Part shown: positions 39,001 through 48,000 of the stretch, piece after piece
Layout of the letters: the number at the start of each line of letters is the position of its first letter
How positions within the stretch are numbered: position 1 is the first letter of the stretch
Assembly (NCBI GenBank): GCA_000002445.1
Contig: CH464491.1
Coordinates: 4,800,001-4,864,000, forward strand
Reading direction: 5' to 3'
Length of the DNA: 64,000 nt
Source: Trypanosoma brucei
Lineage: Eukaryota
Position numbers: made by a program

Positions 39001-42000
39001 TTCTCTTCCACATCACCGGACAGCAGCATCTTAGTGCAGATGATACTGCTGATGGCACGCTGGCACGTGCCCAAGGACCGACAAATGAAAAACGGTGTCC
39101 CAGCAAGACGCTGCTGATCCCTGTGCTGTATGATGCCGTGGCGGAAGCAAAGCAGTGTTCCCCATGAAAGGAATGCTGCTGGCTCTTGGTTTCCACTGAT
39201 GATACGGGGTACTGGACCCTGGCACCACGTTGAGGTGGCCGGCATCGCCAGGGCCATCAATTAAATCAATCCAACAGCAAACAGATTTCTTTCCCTCTTT
39301 AGGTTTGCCTGGCGCCTTGACACATTTGTCTGAGTCAGTATACTGGCCACAATTAGGGTCTTCTATTGCTGCAGTTTCATCTGTTCCTTGATTTGTCTGC
39401 GTTTCTCCATCATTGGGTTTGCAGTGGTTTCCTGTTGTAGCTGTGGTGCTATTCCATTTGATGTTAGCTGCTGTGCGGGTCGCGTTTGTTGTGTGCTGCT
39501 TGCTGTCTGCACGCGTCGCTGAAGCTTGCTGCCTATTTGGCATCATGTGTTGCTGCTGAATATCGTTTGCCTGCTTCTACCTCGCCTTAAAAGCAGACAG
39601 ATGGCCGCAGCGAAACTGTCACACGCCACTGTAAAAAAAAAACGCGTGCAGTGGCTGAGGCCACCCGCCAGCTTTTGTTTTAACAAAAAAATTTGAAACC
39701 GCGAGCAGCGGAAAGTGCAGAGCTGAGATTCACAAAACCAAAATGAAAAAAACGTAACGGCGGGGTAGTAAAAATGAATATTAGAAGAATTTAAGCTAGG
39801 ATGTCTGTATAGTGCATAAGGGAAATGCTATAGAAAAAACAGTCGTTGAATCACAAGGAAAAAAGATGGCTAATTATGAAATAATAATATTGAGTCGATG
39901 TGGGGATGGAAATAAAGGTGGAAAAAATTTAAGCAAAGATGTCTGCTGGAGAAAAAATAGTTATAGTATTCACGAAAAAAAGAGCTGCTGCATCACATAA
40001 AAATAATAAATTTAAAATTCTAACCCTAACAATGTTTTCTAGAAATTTTAACATGAATAACCCTAACCCTAAACACCCAACCAGTCCTAGCCTTTCTTTT
40101 TTCTTTTTGTTATTCGGCTTAAAATTTTAAACCTTAAATCGGGATAAAATTCATTAAAGAAAAATTACCCAAAAGTTAATTAACTTTTCAAAAAGAAATA
40201 GAAAGCTTAAGAATTCCGCTAAAAAATTTAAAAAATTAAAAAAATCAAATATGTTAAAAAATTTATATCTCAAAAAAGTCCAGCAAAAACCTAAAAAGTA
40301 AAAAATATCAAAAATTTGCAAAAATAGAAAAAATGAAAAAAAAGAGCTGAAAGACTAAACAAAAATAAAAAAACCCTAATCTTAAATATTCAAAATTAAC
40401 TCGAAAAACCTAAAAATGAAAATATCAAAAATGCCAAAAAAGGTTGGAAAATGGGGTAAAATTAAATGTCGATGCACGGCTGGGGTTGAATAAGTGTTAT
40501 TGCCCACTTTAAAAAAGAGCCGCTGACGCACAAAAAATTTTTAACTGTTAAAATAAAAATAAAATAAAAAAAGGAAAAATAAAACCCTAACCCGAATAAA
40601 TCTCCCTAAACTTCCTACCTTTCCCCCTACCTTCTTGGTTCGCAGGACAAAATATTCAACAACAAAAAAGAGGGATAATTTTTTTAGCAATCAGAAAAAA
40701 AATTCAAACGCACAGGTAGCCAAAAAATTAATTATTTTTCAGTTTATTTAGGTGTTAAAATATATCAAAATTTCAGCAAAAATCCTAAAAGTTTTATACT
40801 ATAATCAAAAATGCTTAGAATGCAGACAAAAAGTAACGCAGCAAATACCTGAGGAACAGAAACTCTCAAATTGCTAGAAAACGATGCTTCATCTTTCTTG
40901 TCTGTTTCAGCTTTTGGAAAGCATTTCGGGTCTTTTGTCTCATTAAAATCACAACCTGTTTCCTTTTTACAATCTTCGCTTGTTTTGTGCTTTTTGCATT
41001 CGTCTGCTGTTTTCGCTGGTTCTTCTGGTTTGTCTTTTTTTTCTCTTGTCATGGACTGTGTGGGGCATTTTGTTTGCATCTGCAGTGTTGCTGCTTTTGC
41101 TAAGCCAGCGCCAATTGCCGTTGCTATCCCTTCTAGATTCGAAAGCGCCTTTAGTTTCTCTGTCTTTGTTTCTGTGGCTGTGAAGTATGTTACTGTTGTG
41201 TCTGGAAGCTTGCTCCAATTTTTTGTTGTGAACTCTCCGTGATTTTCCCCATACAGTTCTTTGATCTTTGCGGCGATGGCCTGGTCGTTCTCTGGCAATA
41301 GCTTCTGTTCTAGTGGTATGCCTAGTGCTATTCTTGCCACTAGTGCTTTCATGTTACTTTCGCTGGAGTAGCTGTCGCCAGCGGTTAGGTCGGGCATCGT
41401 TTCTAGTGCTTGTACTGCTGCCGTTGCCAGCGTCGTGTTTTCGTCAAGTTCGGCGGCTGTTACTATGTCGAGTGACAGCGCATCCGCAATAATCGTTGCT
41501 AGGTCGGCGGCTTTGTTACGTTGCTCGCTGTGCTGTGCTGCGCGCCCTTCCGTATACTTTAGTCGTGCTTTTATTACGTCCAGCGCTGTTGCGCCGTTGC
41601 ACGCCTGGCCTCGCCCTTTGTTACACCCCAGTTCGACTTCTACTGCCGCATTGGGAGTCTTGAATTTGTGTTGGCGGTTTAGTAAGTCGGTCCAAGGGTG
41701 AAACCCTCACACAGTGGTGCATTGACAACCAGTTTCTGGTCTGCAACACTGGTGAGTGCACCAGGTACGCGCGCCACCACGGGGAGTCCACCCCTGATGT
41801 GACACTGTCAAGGAATTGCACAGTGTACACGTGGACATCGCTGTATTCTCCCGATAGCGATCACCATCACATATTTTTCGACGTTATTGTTGGAGACGGC
41901 ACAGATGCACTGAGTTTCCCGCGGCTTCGAAAGCCCATGTACGCATGGCTAAAAGCTGACTGGAGGAATTTCCGTCTCAAGGTTTACGAGCTCTGCAGGA

Positions 42001-45000: not shown

Positions 45001-48000
45001 GAGACCACAGGTGCTTCATTGTACCCTCTGTGCCTCCAAATTCGCAGTGCCAGGCCGACTATTATACCACCTTAGAACAATACATGGCATAGGCAGCGGT
45101 AGTGGGCGCGTGAAAAGGGGGCGAGAGAACGAGGACTCAGTGCAAGGAGATGGTAGAGCCCCAGCACCGCCAGCCCCTCAGGATACGCGAAAGCTGCCGT
45201 TTCAATGTGACCTGTGTGAGGCGAGCTTCGGTACACGTTCTTCCCTGTCACTACACAAGAAATTCAAACATAAAAGCATAGTGACGGAGGACGGTACCGT
45301 GGTGGTGGTGCAGTTCCCTCGTAAGCGTGCCCGCGAGGGAAACGTTGACGTCCCGGGGAAAGGGGAGATGCAGTGTGGTGTGTGCCAAAAAGTCCTCAGT
45401 TGCAGGGACTCCCTCATCCGACACTGTAAGGCTTTCCACAAAGGTGAGGGAGTCGAGCTTAAATGCAGCAAAAGCACAAAATTGTGTGCCACTGATTCCC
45501 CGCATACAAACACATCCATGTTGGTGTGCCCGACATGCGGAAGGCAATGTGCTAGCAAAACTGGCCTCACCCTACATCAAAAGAAGATGCACGGTATGAA
45601 GGTAGAGAGCACTGTCACCAGCCAACGCTGCGACTGCGAAGAAACGTCGCTGCACTTGATGAGCTGTCCCGGTTTGAAGGAGTTACGTGTCAGGTTTGCG
45701 GTAGAAGGTGTGTTTGTGCAGGATATATGCCTCTCTAAAAGGCTGGCGCAGTTTCTCATTGCGGTTGAACTGAGCCGGCTGCAGGTGAAGTCCTCACCTA
45801 ATGTAACAGTCATACAACCCACTCTCCCTTCTGAAACTTCCCCTCTTATTGCCGAGTGTGGAGCTAGCAGGAAAAGCACCGGACGCAGGAATAGTCTAGA
45901 CACCCTCAGAGACAGAGGGGGTATGCAGTCAACAAGCAACAGAAACAGAAAGAGAAAGAGGGAGAGAGAATAATAAACGAATAACAAAAATCAAAACAAA
46001 AGGATTGCTAATTGACATCTTCGGGAGAGTCCGGGGTGAGGGGCTTGTCGCCCCATCTGCTGTATTCCGTTCAACTGCGGAGCTACAACAAAAATTATGG
46101 AGAGTGTGTTGGGATGAATAAAAAAGGGAGACTCTGCCACAGTCGCCAGACCGATAGCATCTCAGGGCTCTACGGTGATGGCTGATGGCCGCGCCAGTGG
46201 GGGGAAACTCTCACGAAGGCACGAAGAAAATTTCAAAAAAAATTTTCTGTCGATGGGCTGCAAAGCTTGACCACCGCTGTACTGACAACCGCCAGTAGAA
46301 GTTCTTCACGAGGCTTCTTCCATTATCTTATCATATCTTTTGTTTTCCGGTTTAAAGAAAGGAAATTATTTTGGATTGGGAGTCATATTGAAATCACTTA
46401 ACTTCGCTGCGCGTGCTAGCTTGACGGGTTGGTTCTCCTCACAATTTTATAATTATTCTTTCTAGTAGCTTTGCGTCTTCGTCTAAGATGGCTAAAAAAT
46501 ACAAGGCTGGTGTTTACTCATTTTCTTTTCTTACACAGAGTTTTTTCTTCACTGACCTTGTTGCAAATAAAATTATAGCTAATAATCATAGCCTTTCCAC
46601 TTATAATAAAAGTTTTTAATAGTTTTATTACTATACCACTTATTTTCTGTACACCTATAGGCCTATACCAACTAAAATGTTTCACAACCTTATTTGATTT
46701 CTCTTTCTACGCAATTGTTTGTCGTGAAAAATGAATAAACGGAGTCTTTTCAACTTCACTATTATATAAAATAGAAAAGAACCCTCTCCTCACAGTCCAG
46801 ACCAATCATTTCTCTCCTCTTCGAAAAATCTCTGTCCAACAGCTTCTTCCTGAATTGCACTCAAAATTAGTAATAGTTTTGAAATACTTTGATCATACCA
46901 CAATTACTCACTTCCGTTCAATAACTCTTCAAATGCATATTCAAATTTCCTAAACGCTCACACTCGCGCTATTAATCCTCCTCCACTAAGATAAGGTTTT
47001 ACACTAGGAGGCGATTTCAGTAAATGCGGTAGCTTCTTATCCTATTCTTTTCTGTAGCCCACATTTAAAAACCAAAAACATCTCTGCACATGCTCCTTGG
47101 ATCTGAGTTCATGAGCAAATCAAACTGAGGAGCATAACACTCTGATGTTGTCATGAATATAATAGGAGAAATATGCTTCTCTTTTACTATATATTCTCCA
47201 CTAAACTTCTCTTCATATTCCGCAGTATTTTGTATAAAATATTATACTGTTTTTTCATACTTATTTCCATCACTAACTATAACATCAGATCCATCCAAAT
47301 GAATTGCAGTATCCTCATCACTTGAATTCTGTCCTTATAAAAATTCCATAAACCATCTAGGCCTCTTAACATGGCTATACAAACTTCCCATCGCAATTGT
47401 AATAATTTCAATGTTACTTAGTTTGGGACTCAATATGAGCCTACACTATCCCTGTGTTGCATGAGTTTGAACCACAACCATAAAAACTCTGAGTTTCTTA
47501 AGAGCATTATGTGTTACAGTTGCTGTTTTTTCTTGAAAAGATATTGAACTTAAACACACTAAATGCAACAGTAACAGTAAAGTTCGCAAGACGCCGAATT
47601 TCACTTCCTAGGAAACTTTAAAAATTTGCAAGATATGTAAGAAAAAAGTACAAGGCTTAGGAGAAGGAGATATAAACACAAGGAGAATTTTAATTTTGAA
47701 CAAGTTTTCAATTCTAATAAGGAAATATACTTCTCTGTTTCTAAATATAAATTTTAACATTTATGGTTCTTAGTGGCCTCTATTAATGTAACTAACGTAG
47801 CTACTCCATTTGGCATGTACACTAAAATTATTATCTCCATTGCTGTTCTGTGAATCATTTACATGAGATAACAAGAGTAGCCATATTCACATTCTGTCTG
47901 AAATGCTAATGTCCCGTATCTTTTTCTTTCTCTCCCTGTTCGCTTACTTACTGTCTTTCCGCCTCGTCAATGGTATATGTGCTACTATTGTTACAGTCCA

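What the first reader, a model, noticed from the sequence alone, without database searches (positions are those of the whole stretch)
40765..46330. ingi retrotransposon inserted in antisense orientation into a VSG gene, separating the VSG body from a putative signal-peptide remnant
A minus-strand VSG frame (N-domain plus C-terminal domain, 40765-41700) runs open right up to the point where ingi sequence begins. The ingi is on the plus strand and is 5'-truncated inside its APE-endonuclease domain; the first recognisable motif is YSPDSDHHH. Immediately past the ingi poly(A), at 46250-46330, the minus strand encodes a hydrophobic signal-peptide-like stretch, KKPREELLLAVVSTAVVKL. An 8-mer TGACAACC lies at both junctions and could be the target-site duplication or microhomology. 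About 150-200 aa of VSG N-domain are missing, which implies a deletion at insertion. The element also offers a 4.5-kb block of homology for ectopic recombination inside the array.
Basis: partly seen in the sequence, partly recalled or inferred. Interest (0 to 1): 0.6.

Follow-up and report, generated by a model that had tools for sequence, protein, structure and literature searches.

The report
Split, inverted ingi among VSG fragments
A dead ingi retrotransposon does sit next to a surface-antigen (VSG) pseudogene in this trypanosome gene array, but it is a rearranged patchwork of VSG and ingi fragments rather than a clean insertion into one gene, which is mostly ordinary for such arrays.

Summary
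The sequence features are real. Plus-strand ingi occupies 41692-46242, which is nt 715-5258 of a 5258-nt element and ends in A8. It abuts a minus-strand A-type VSG frame (41691->40765, from about residue 185 to the end). Just past the poly(A) lies a degenerate VSG start (ATG 46325) at the position expected from the conserved upstream block.

The "simple insertion into one VSG" reading does not hold:
- The 8-mer TGACAACC is ingi-internal on one side and 41 nt beyond the poly(A) on the other, so it is not a target-site duplication. No 12-bp duplication exists for any pairing of flanks.
- The start stub does not resemble the N-termini of the body's closest relatives.
- The stub's upstream block precedes B-type VSGs in 5 of 5 typed cases.

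The missing ingi 5' end (nt 1-453/459) lies 2.4 kb to the left, inverted (39253->38798). It is fused on one side to an orphan VSG C-terminal fragment and on the other to a 70-bp repeat. Only ingi nt ~460-714 are absent.

The most economical history is one ingi plus its upstream flank, split and inverted in a twin-priming-like event that replaced the body of the original VSG. This is an inference (about 0.4). Independent truncations remain a serious rival. Overall interest is low to moderate.

The parts
48027..48117 (-). 70-bp repeat unit that opens the cassette containing the disrupted VSG
   Evidence: A hallmark motif lies at 48057-48071. It is one of 9 minus-strand matches against 0.22 expected. 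Aligned with the other units.
46665..47595 (-). Conserved VSG-upstream block (U1)
   Evidence: It is 74-82% identical to 37104-37959 and also similar to 62787-63428 and 29026-29254. In 5 of 5 typed cases this block precedes a B-type VSG.
46243..46325 (-). Degenerate 5' stub of a VSG gene ('VSG-X'). It has an ATG at 46325-46323, a stop after 5 codons, and a hydrophobic run in another frame.
   Evidence: Translations. The ATG aligns with the ATGs of two VSGs. Weak N-terminal similarity to VSG 719. The first 12 nt (TTTTCTGTCGAT) fit the target preference seen at other ingi/RIME flanks.
41692..46242 (+). Ingi 3' fragment, nt 715-5258, with an A8 tail at 46235-46242. It carries the C-terminal end of the APE domain, RT, RNase H and zinc fingers. 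It has one premature stop (TAG at 44055) and at least one frameshift near 44.65-44.7 kb.
40765..41691 (-). A-type VSG fragment ('VSG-Z'), from about residue 185 to the end. The normal stop is lost, so the frame reads into the 3'UTR. The conserved 3'UTR 16-mer TGATATATTTTAACAC lies at 40767-40752.
   Evidence: The 16-mer was read directly from the sequence.
39547..40751 (-). AT-rich spacer ('D') downstream of VSG-Z with clustered TTAGGG hexamers in VSG sense
   Evidence: Six of the window's 12 plus-strand CCCTAA hexamers fall in 40024-40609. The spacer has no similarity elsewhere in the window.
39254..39546 (-). Orphan VSG C-terminal-domain fragment ('W-CTD'), cut by ingi nt 1
   Evidence: Pfam Trypan_glycop_C, E = 6e-6, profile positions 2-78 of 104. 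The flank reads TGA + 12 nt + CCCTGG, which fits the ingi target pattern.
38798..39253 (-). Ingi 5' fragment, nt 1-453 firm and up to 459 by homeology. It includes the 79-bp signature and the N-terminal part of the APE domain.
   Evidence: 93-95% identical to L001 and L003, and 96% to RIME-A. Junction detail.
38730..38804 (-). 70-bp repeat unit whose TRR (purine-rich triplet) tract is fused directly to ingi nt ~453. It opens the next cassette, whose B-type VSG starts at ATG 36796.
   Evidence: Exact hallmark ATATTATAATAAGAG at 38762-38748. Aligned with the other units. The next VSG is B-type, with its start.

Best explanation
The locus is a composite in a Trypanosoma brucei-group VSG array. 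Read on the minus strand, which is the array's sense, the order is:
1. 70-bp repeat and upstream block.
2. A 26-codon stub of VSG-X.
3. Antisense ingi, nt 5258->715.
4. A-type VSG-Z, residue 185 to the end.
5. Spacer with TTAGGG relics.
6. Orphan VSG C-terminal fragment.
7. Sense ingi, nt 1->~459.
8. The 70-bp repeat of the next cassette.

SHOWN
- The two ingi fragments are complementary. Only nt ~460-714 are missing.
- They are inverted relative to each other.
- The nt-1 end of the 5' fragment faces the nt-715 end of the 3' fragment.

INFERRED
- Both fragments come from one ingi whose source-locus upstream flank was [VSG-Z ... spacer ... C-terminal fragment].
- Target-primed reverse transcription began at the poly(A) in codon ~26 of VSG-X and stopped near nt 715.
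- A second 3' end, from the purine-triplet tract of the downstream 70-bp repeat, primed internally near nt 453-462. It copied back through ingi nt 1 into the upstream flank, as far as VSG-Z codon 185.
- Joining the two cDNAs gave the inverted arrangement and deleted the roughly 1.7-kb body of VSG-X.

In effect this is L1-style twin priming acting on a 5'-extended transcript. The element is dead: its endonuclease domain is split, and it carries a premature stop and a frameshift.
For: - The ingi coordinates are complementary and the topology is the one predicted. Nt 1-459 lie at 39253->38798 (minus) and nt 715-5258 at 41692->46246 (plus). No other ingi sequence is in the window except a RIME and a 28-nt scrap. 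Under independence, a 5' fragment ending within about 260 nt of the other's start, inverted and on the correct side, would occur with a probability of roughly 1-5% (my estimate).
- Private substitution rates are indistinguishable: 11/449 against 92/4541, p = 0.49.
- Both outer ingi ends look like genuine element ends. One is a precise nt 1 preceded by TGA + 12 nt. The other is the complete 3' end plus A8, followed by TTTTCTGT, as at other copies.
- The C-terminal fragment is in the same sense as the 5' piece, while the VSG-X stub is antisense to the 3' piece. The two flanks therefore cannot be one target, but they fit a source flank plus a new target.
- At the distal junction, 9 nt are homeologous between ingi nt 454-462 and the repeat's triplet tract: 5 identities and 4 A/G transitions. 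This fits primer annealing.
- The stub and the body do not look like one VSG.
- The definition of twin priming is taken from PMC2837659.
Against: - There are no target-site duplications, so a ~1.7-kb target deletion must be assumed.
- The two fragments are separated by 2.4 kb of non-ingi DNA, so a long 5' read-through template is required. The ingi 5' end encodes an HDV-like ribozyme, reported active in T. brucei LINEs, that should cut off upstream RNA (PMC4035085).
- The equal-age test has little power, because all copies compared show 2-3% private divergence.
- The 9-nt homeology could be chance.
- No source locus or ancestral allele could be retrieved.
- Twin priming was not found described for trypanosome elements in the searched library.
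- VSG arrays are known to accumulate many independent rearrangements.
Confidence: 0.4

Rival explanations
1. Two unrelated ingi copies. One inserted antisense into VSG-X at codon ~26. The other inserted in sense into a VSG C-terminal domain. Later deletions or segmental conversions, of the microhomology-mediated kind typical of VSG arrays, removed nt 1-714 of the first along with the VSG-X body, and nt 460-5258 of the second at a 70-bp repeat. The near-complementary break points are coincidence.
For: - Both outer ends are normal element ends with different flanks and no shared duplication.
- One break lies exactly in a 70-bp repeat, a known recombination site next to silent VSGs (PMC12975129).
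- The neighbourhood is full of VSG fragments and frameshifted pseudogenes.
- The RIME and the two full-length ingi copies examined also lack clean duplications, which suggests frequent flank reshuffling.
Against: - It needs at least four events.
- It leaves the complementary coordinates, the inverted orientation and the facing arrangement to chance (about 1-5%).
Confidence: 0.3
2. A single VSG was hit by a 5'-truncated ingi insertion, accompanied by a ~470-bp target deletion (codons 27-184). The inverted 5' fragment downstream is unrelated.
For: - The stub, the ingi and the body are collinear, and stub and body share the same VSG orientation.
- The poly(A) junction fits target-primed insertion.
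- Stub plus the missing part plus the body would give a VSG of normal length.
- The ATG is correctly placed.
Against: - No duplication or microhomology is demonstrable, and the proposed 8-mer is refuted.
- The stub does not resemble the N-termini of P0001 or P0002, the body's family.
- The upstream block goes with B-type VSGs in 5 of 5 cases, while the body is A-type.
- The model ignores the complementary ingi fragment.
Confidence: 0.12
3. A DNA-level inversion in situ. A full ingi with its flank once lay on the plus strand here. A later inversion, with one break inside ingi (255 bp lost) and one at the 70-bp repeat, flipped 38798-41691.
For: It gives the same topology as the best explanation, and it needs no read-through RNA.
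Against: The pre-inversion state would have an ingi whose 5' and 3' flanks are VSG pieces in opposite senses with no duplication. It would also place VSG-Z codon 185 against a 70-bp repeat. Extra events are therefore still needed.
Confidence: 0.13
4. An assembly artefact across a 5-kb dispersed repeat.
For: Ingi is a high-copy repeat, and the source assembly is unknown.
Against: Both odd junctions join ingi to unique sequence rather than ingi to ingi. A repeat collapse or mis-join inside homologous sequence would not create such junctions.
Confidence: 0.05

Closest known systems
Tbingi / RIME non-LTR retroposons of Trypanosoma brucei (ingi clade)
   Same: 93-95% nucleotide identity to full-length copies. 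The 79-bp 5' signature, the APE/RT/RNase H/zinc-finger coding order and a short poly(A) are all present. The flanks fit the same target preference as other copies.
   Different: This is not one contiguous 5.25-kb element. It is two complementary inverted fragments 2.4 kb apart, with nt ~460-714 missing and without the 12-bp duplication that characterises the family (PMC3820030).
L1 twin priming (5'-inverted LINE insertions)
   Same: Two inverted fragments of one element type with an internal deletion at the inversion point. The 3' piece carries the poly(A). The distal end of the inverted piece shows short homeology with the flank (PMC2837659).
   Different: No bounding duplications. The fragments are not adjacent, because 2.4 kb of VSG and spacer sequence lies between them, so a 5'-extended template must be assumed. 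Not found described for trypanosome elements in the searched library.
5'-truncated LINE insertion with target-site deletion
   Same: A truncated element with an intact poly(A) junction and loss of target sequence.
   Different: The truncated-away part is present nearby and inverted. The two flanks do not look like one gene.
70-bp-repeat-bounded silent VSG cassettes and VSG pseudogene fragments in subtelomeric arrays
   Same: Each minus-strand VSG is preceded by a 70-bp unit. Frameshifted and partial VSGs are common. The 3'UTR 16-mer is present.
   Different: This cassette holds pieces of three different VSGs plus two ingi fragments. About 2 kb lie between the VSG stop and the next 70-bp unit, against about 250-300 bp at three other cassettes (my reading of the coordinates).

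Membership tests
Tbingi retroposon | Nucleotide homology to full-length ingi over its length | tested here: met
   Nt 715-5258 are 95% identical and nt 1-459 are 93-95% identical to L001 and L003. Nt ~460-714 are absent.
Tbingi retroposon | Conserved 79-bp 5' signature and 3' poly(A) | tested here: met
   The signature is at 39253-39175, with 1 difference from the RIME copy. The A8 tail is at 46235-46242. They lie on opposite strands.
Tbingi retroposon | 12-bp target-site duplication (PMC3820030) | tested here: not met
No pairing of flanks gives a duplication. The candidate 12-mers TTTAATTGATGG and TTTTCTGTCGAT have no second copy at any junction.
Tbingi retroposon | Single long ORF encoding APE endonuclease, RT, RNase H and zinc fingers | tested here: not met
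   The domains are recognisable. However, the APE domain is split with about 87 residues missing, there is a TAG at 44055, and there is a frameshift near 44.65-44.7 kb. This is a dead copy.
VSG (A-type) gene | N-terminal domain, C-terminal domain and conserved 3'UTR element | tested here: met
   PF00913 scores 23.2 bits against a cutoff of 22.1, over the distal part only. The frame is 70-76% identical to P0001 and VSG 1188 from residue 185. The 16-mer lies at 40767-40752.
VSG (A-type) gene | Complete ORF with a signal peptide contiguous with the body, and a GPI-signal stop | tested here: not met
   About 184 N-terminal residues are absent from the body. The stub has a stop after 5 codons. The C-terminal stop is lost, so the frame reads through into the 3'UTR.
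   No ortholog without the insertion could be fetched. Indirect tests point against it: N-terminal dissimilarity and the upstream block's association with B-type VSGs.
Twin-priming (5'-inverted) LINE insertion | [quoted passage not shown] | tested here: met
   Nt 1-459 are inverted relative to nt 715-5258, about 255 nt are missing, and the order and facing are correct.
Twin-priming (5'-inverted) LINE insertion | Fragments adjacent to each other and bounded by target-site duplications (PMC2837659) | tested here: not met
   2,438 bp of non-ingi sequence lies between them, and there are no duplications.
70-bp repeat | Triplet-rich tract followed by the conserved ...ATATACNAATATTATAATAAGAG core, upstream of a VSG | tested here: met
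   The core is exact at 38762-38748. The unit aligns with 6 other units in the window. The repeat's role next to silent VSGs is described in PMC12975129.

The most novel reading that the evidence does not exclude
An ingi retrotransposition event of the twin-priming type used a read-through transcript and so carried about 2.4 kb of upstream sequence into a new array position. That sequence comprised two-thirds of an A-type VSG, its 3'UTR, a telomere-like spacer and a second VSG C-terminal fragment. It overwrote the resident VSG. This would be RNA-mediated (5'-transduction) movement of VSG coding sequence, a route for reshaping the silent VSG archive that is distinct from DNA recombination.
Probability: 0.2. 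Interest if true: 0.6.

Novelty: new member of a known kind. Interest (0 to 1): 0.3.

Why it matters
Ingi and RIME copies and VSG pseudogene fragments are routine in T. brucei subtelomeric arrays, so on that level the locus is ordinary. It matters in two smaller ways.

First, it corrects an attractive but wrong annotation. This is not one VSG split by one insertion with a duplication. It is pieces of three VSGs and two complementary ingi fragments.

Second, if the two fragments really derive from one element, the locus would be a candidate first example of twin priming and 5' transduction by an ingi-clade element. It would also show retrotransposition moving VSG coding sequence. That idea can be tested genome-wide with existing long-read assemblies.

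Tried and rejected
- **The 8-mer as duplication or microhomology.** Rejected. One copy is ingi nt 746 and the other is 41 nt beyond the tail.
- **A 12-bp duplication between any pair of flanks.** I tested 41680-41691, 38786-38797 and the reverse complement of 39254-39265 against 46243-46254. None matched. The apparent 8 of 12 match needs a 2-nt shift and is explained by shared target preference (TGA/TCA followed by TT...) seen at four elements.
- **Fetching the same locus from other assemblies.** Exact-protein look-ups of five window ORFs and of P0001 found nothing. The T. equiperdum OVI contig L002 is 100% identical to 48625-50838 but breaks before the region of interest.
- **DNA similarity of the stub (46243-46664) to other loci.** None found.
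- **Relative age of the two fragments.** Private substitutions give no difference, but the test has low power.
- **Rfam scan for the 5' ribozyme or other RNAs at 38-48.5 kb.** Only chance-level hits.
- **Homologous recombination between two inverted full ingi copies.** Rejected on logic, because it would yield two full-length hybrids rather than complementary fragments.

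
Full report
**Context.** The window is a Trypanosoma brucei-group subtelomeric VSG array.
- From about 17 kb onward, VSG genes and pseudogenes run on the minus strand. Each is preceded by a single 70-bp repeat unit. The hallmark ATATTATAATAAGAG occurs 9 times with at most 2 mismatches, always on the minus strand, against 0.22 expected.
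- Pfam identifies B-type and A-type VSG domains, C-terminal domains and an ESAG1 gene.
- Parts of the window are 100% identical to a T. equiperdum OVI contig.

**Checking the observation: the ingi.**
- Two full-length ingi copies were fetched for reference: L001 nt 3513-8770 and L003 nt 5884-623.
- Window 41692-46246 aligns to ingi nt 715-5258 at 95%. The element ends with its normal 3' sequence and A8 at 46235-46242.
- Its ORFs carry RVT_1, RNase_H and C2H2 fingers.
In an intact copy that domain runs from MQWNCAGL to SDHHH, and the window fragment starts at KGETLTQWCIDN.
- The copy has an in-frame TAG at 44055 and a frameshift near 44.65-44.7 kb.

**Checking the observation: the VSG body.**
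- On the minus strand a frame is open from 41706 to 40765.
- It is 70-76% identical to a 486-aa VSG (P0001) and to VSG 1188 (P0002). Real similarity starts exactly at TDLL, P0001 residue 185, which is window 41691.
- The VSG|ingi junction is therefore sharp, at 41691/41692.

**The proposed duplication fails.**
- TGACAACC at 41723 is ingi nt 746 and is also present in L001.
- The other copy, at 46283, lies 41 nt past the A8 tail.
- An 8-mer is expected about twice in 128 kb of both strands, and four copies are seen.
- Tbingi insertions are characterised by 12-bp duplications (PMC3820030). No 12-mer next to any junction has a partner.

**The putative signal-peptide remnant.**
- The hydrophobic run exists, but it has no in-frame ATG. 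The ATG at 46325 reads MEEAS-stop.
- Position supports a VSG start. The region 46665-47595 is a conserved VSG-upstream block, 74-82% identical to 37104-37959 and also similar to 62787-63428. In an alignment anchored on that block, the 46325 ATG falls within 3 columns of the start codons of two B-type VSGs.
- Among 52 VSG N-termini, the frameshift-corrected stub matches best the first 19 residues of VSG 719. Only 53 of 2000 shuffles reach that score.
- So a degenerate VSG 5' end is likely.

**The stub does not look like the 5' end of the body.**
- It ranks 4th and 46th of 52 against the N-termini of P0001 and P0002. Those two are each other's best partners.
- The upstream block is followed by B-type VSGs in all five cases I could type, three in the window and two in L004. 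The body is A-type.
- This evidence is modest, because B-type genes are the majority here.

- Ingi nt 1-459 lie on the minus strand at 39253-38798.
- The nt-1 end is precise. It abuts an orphan VSG C-terminal-domain fragment at 39546-39254, in a TGA + 12 nt context like other ingi 5' flanks.
- The other end matches ingi up to nt 453. It then shows 9 nt of homeology (AAGATGATA against GAGGTGGTG). It then runs into the purine-triplet tract of a 70-bp repeat unit, whose core is exact at 38762-38748.
- That repeat opens the next cassette, a B-type VSG with its ATG at 36796.
- Between the two ingi fragments lie the C-terminal fragment, a 1.2-kb AT-rich spacer and the VSG body. The spacer carries 6 of the window's 12 plus-strand CCCTAA hexamers.
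- No other ingi sequence is in the window apart from a RIME (15829-16331) and a 28-nt scrap.

**Interpretation: what is robust.**
- The poly(A)|stub junction and the C-terminal-fragment|nt-1 junction look like true element ends.
- The ingi-715|VSG-185 and ingi-453|70-bp junctions are rearrangement junctions.

**Interpretation: the single-origin argument.**
- The two fragments are complementary, with only about 255 nt missing. They are inverted, and the nt-1 end of one faces the nt-715 end of the other.
- Of the simple inversions one can draw, only one restores a contiguous ingi: flipping 38798-41691.
- The difference here is that the inverted cDNA would have continued past nt 1 into 2.4 kb of upstream flank. 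That requires a 5'-extended transcript.

**Points in favour of the twin-priming reading.**
- The C-terminal fragment is in the same sense as its ingi piece, whereas the stub is antisense to its ingi piece. They cannot be the two sides of one target, but they fit a source flank plus a new target.
- The distal junction shows short homeology with the 70-bp repeat.
- A regular ancestral array (upstream block, VSG-X, 70-bp repeat, next cassette) would be converted to the present state in one step.

**Points against the twin-priming reading.**
- There are no duplications, so a ~1.7-kb target deletion must be assumed.
- The ingi 5' HDV-like ribozyme, reported active in T. brucei LINEs (PMC4035085), should remove upstream RNA.
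- The substitution-rate test (2.4% against 2.0% private differences, p = 0.49) is compatible with one element but weak.
- I found no paper describing twin priming in trypanosomes.

**Rivals.**
- Two independent ingi copies truncated by later deletions or conversions is a serious alternative (0.3), because these arrays are highly rearranged. It leaves the coordinates and orientation to chance, roughly 1-5% by my estimate.
- An in-situ DNA inversion (0.13) shares the topology but needs an unnatural precursor.
- Misassembly is unlikely, because both odd junctions join ingi to unique sequence.

**Verdict.** The locus is a dead, split ingi embedded among fragments of three VSGs. For a specialist this is mostly ordinary array debris. 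The possible twin-priming and 5'-transduction origin is the one point worth a genome-wide follow-up.

Noticed in passing
window 40024-40609 (within spacer 39547-40751): Six of the window's 12 plus-strand CCCTAA hexamers cluster here. They read TTAGGG in the sense of the VSG just upstream. The stretch looks like a relic of a telomere-proximal VSG flank now lying internal to the array.
   Followed up: partly
window 15829-16331 (+): A complete RIME: ingi nt 1-250 joined to nt 5010-5258, with an A10 tail. It has no clear 12-bp duplication. It lies near the switch from plus-strand genes (VSG_B at 5763-6665, ESAG1 at 13472-14476) to the minus-strand VSG array.
   Followed up: partly
window 62422-62967 (-); degenerate copies at ~46390-47060 and ~36900-37340: An intact 181-aa ORF with no Pfam match lies inside the conserved block upstream of B-type VSGs. 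The copies upstream of the stub and of the 36796 VSG are broken by stops.
   Followed up: partly
window 29351-29378 (+): An isolated 28-nt match (93-96%) to ingi/RIME nt 19-46, next to another copy of the VSG-upstream block. It may be a remnant of a degenerate retroposon.
   Followed up: no
window 40765-40830 (-): VSG-Z has lost the stop after ...AALLF and reads 21 codons into the 3'UTR, ending inside the conserved 16-mer. Its closest database relative P0001 shows the same read-through tail, so the defect is shared within this VSG family.
   Followed up: partly
window 48625-50838, 52208-52979, 53405-53638 versus L002: These stretches are 100% identical to a T. equiperdum OVI contig built from pieces joined by short N gaps. 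The intervening VSG (50631-52125) is only 93% identical. This suggests either a very close strain or a partly reference-patched assembly.
   Followed up: no
window 32950-33909 (-): A 319-aa ORF with no Pfam match lies between a 70-bp repeat (34213) and a B-type VSG (31058-32371). It was not identified.
   Followed up: no
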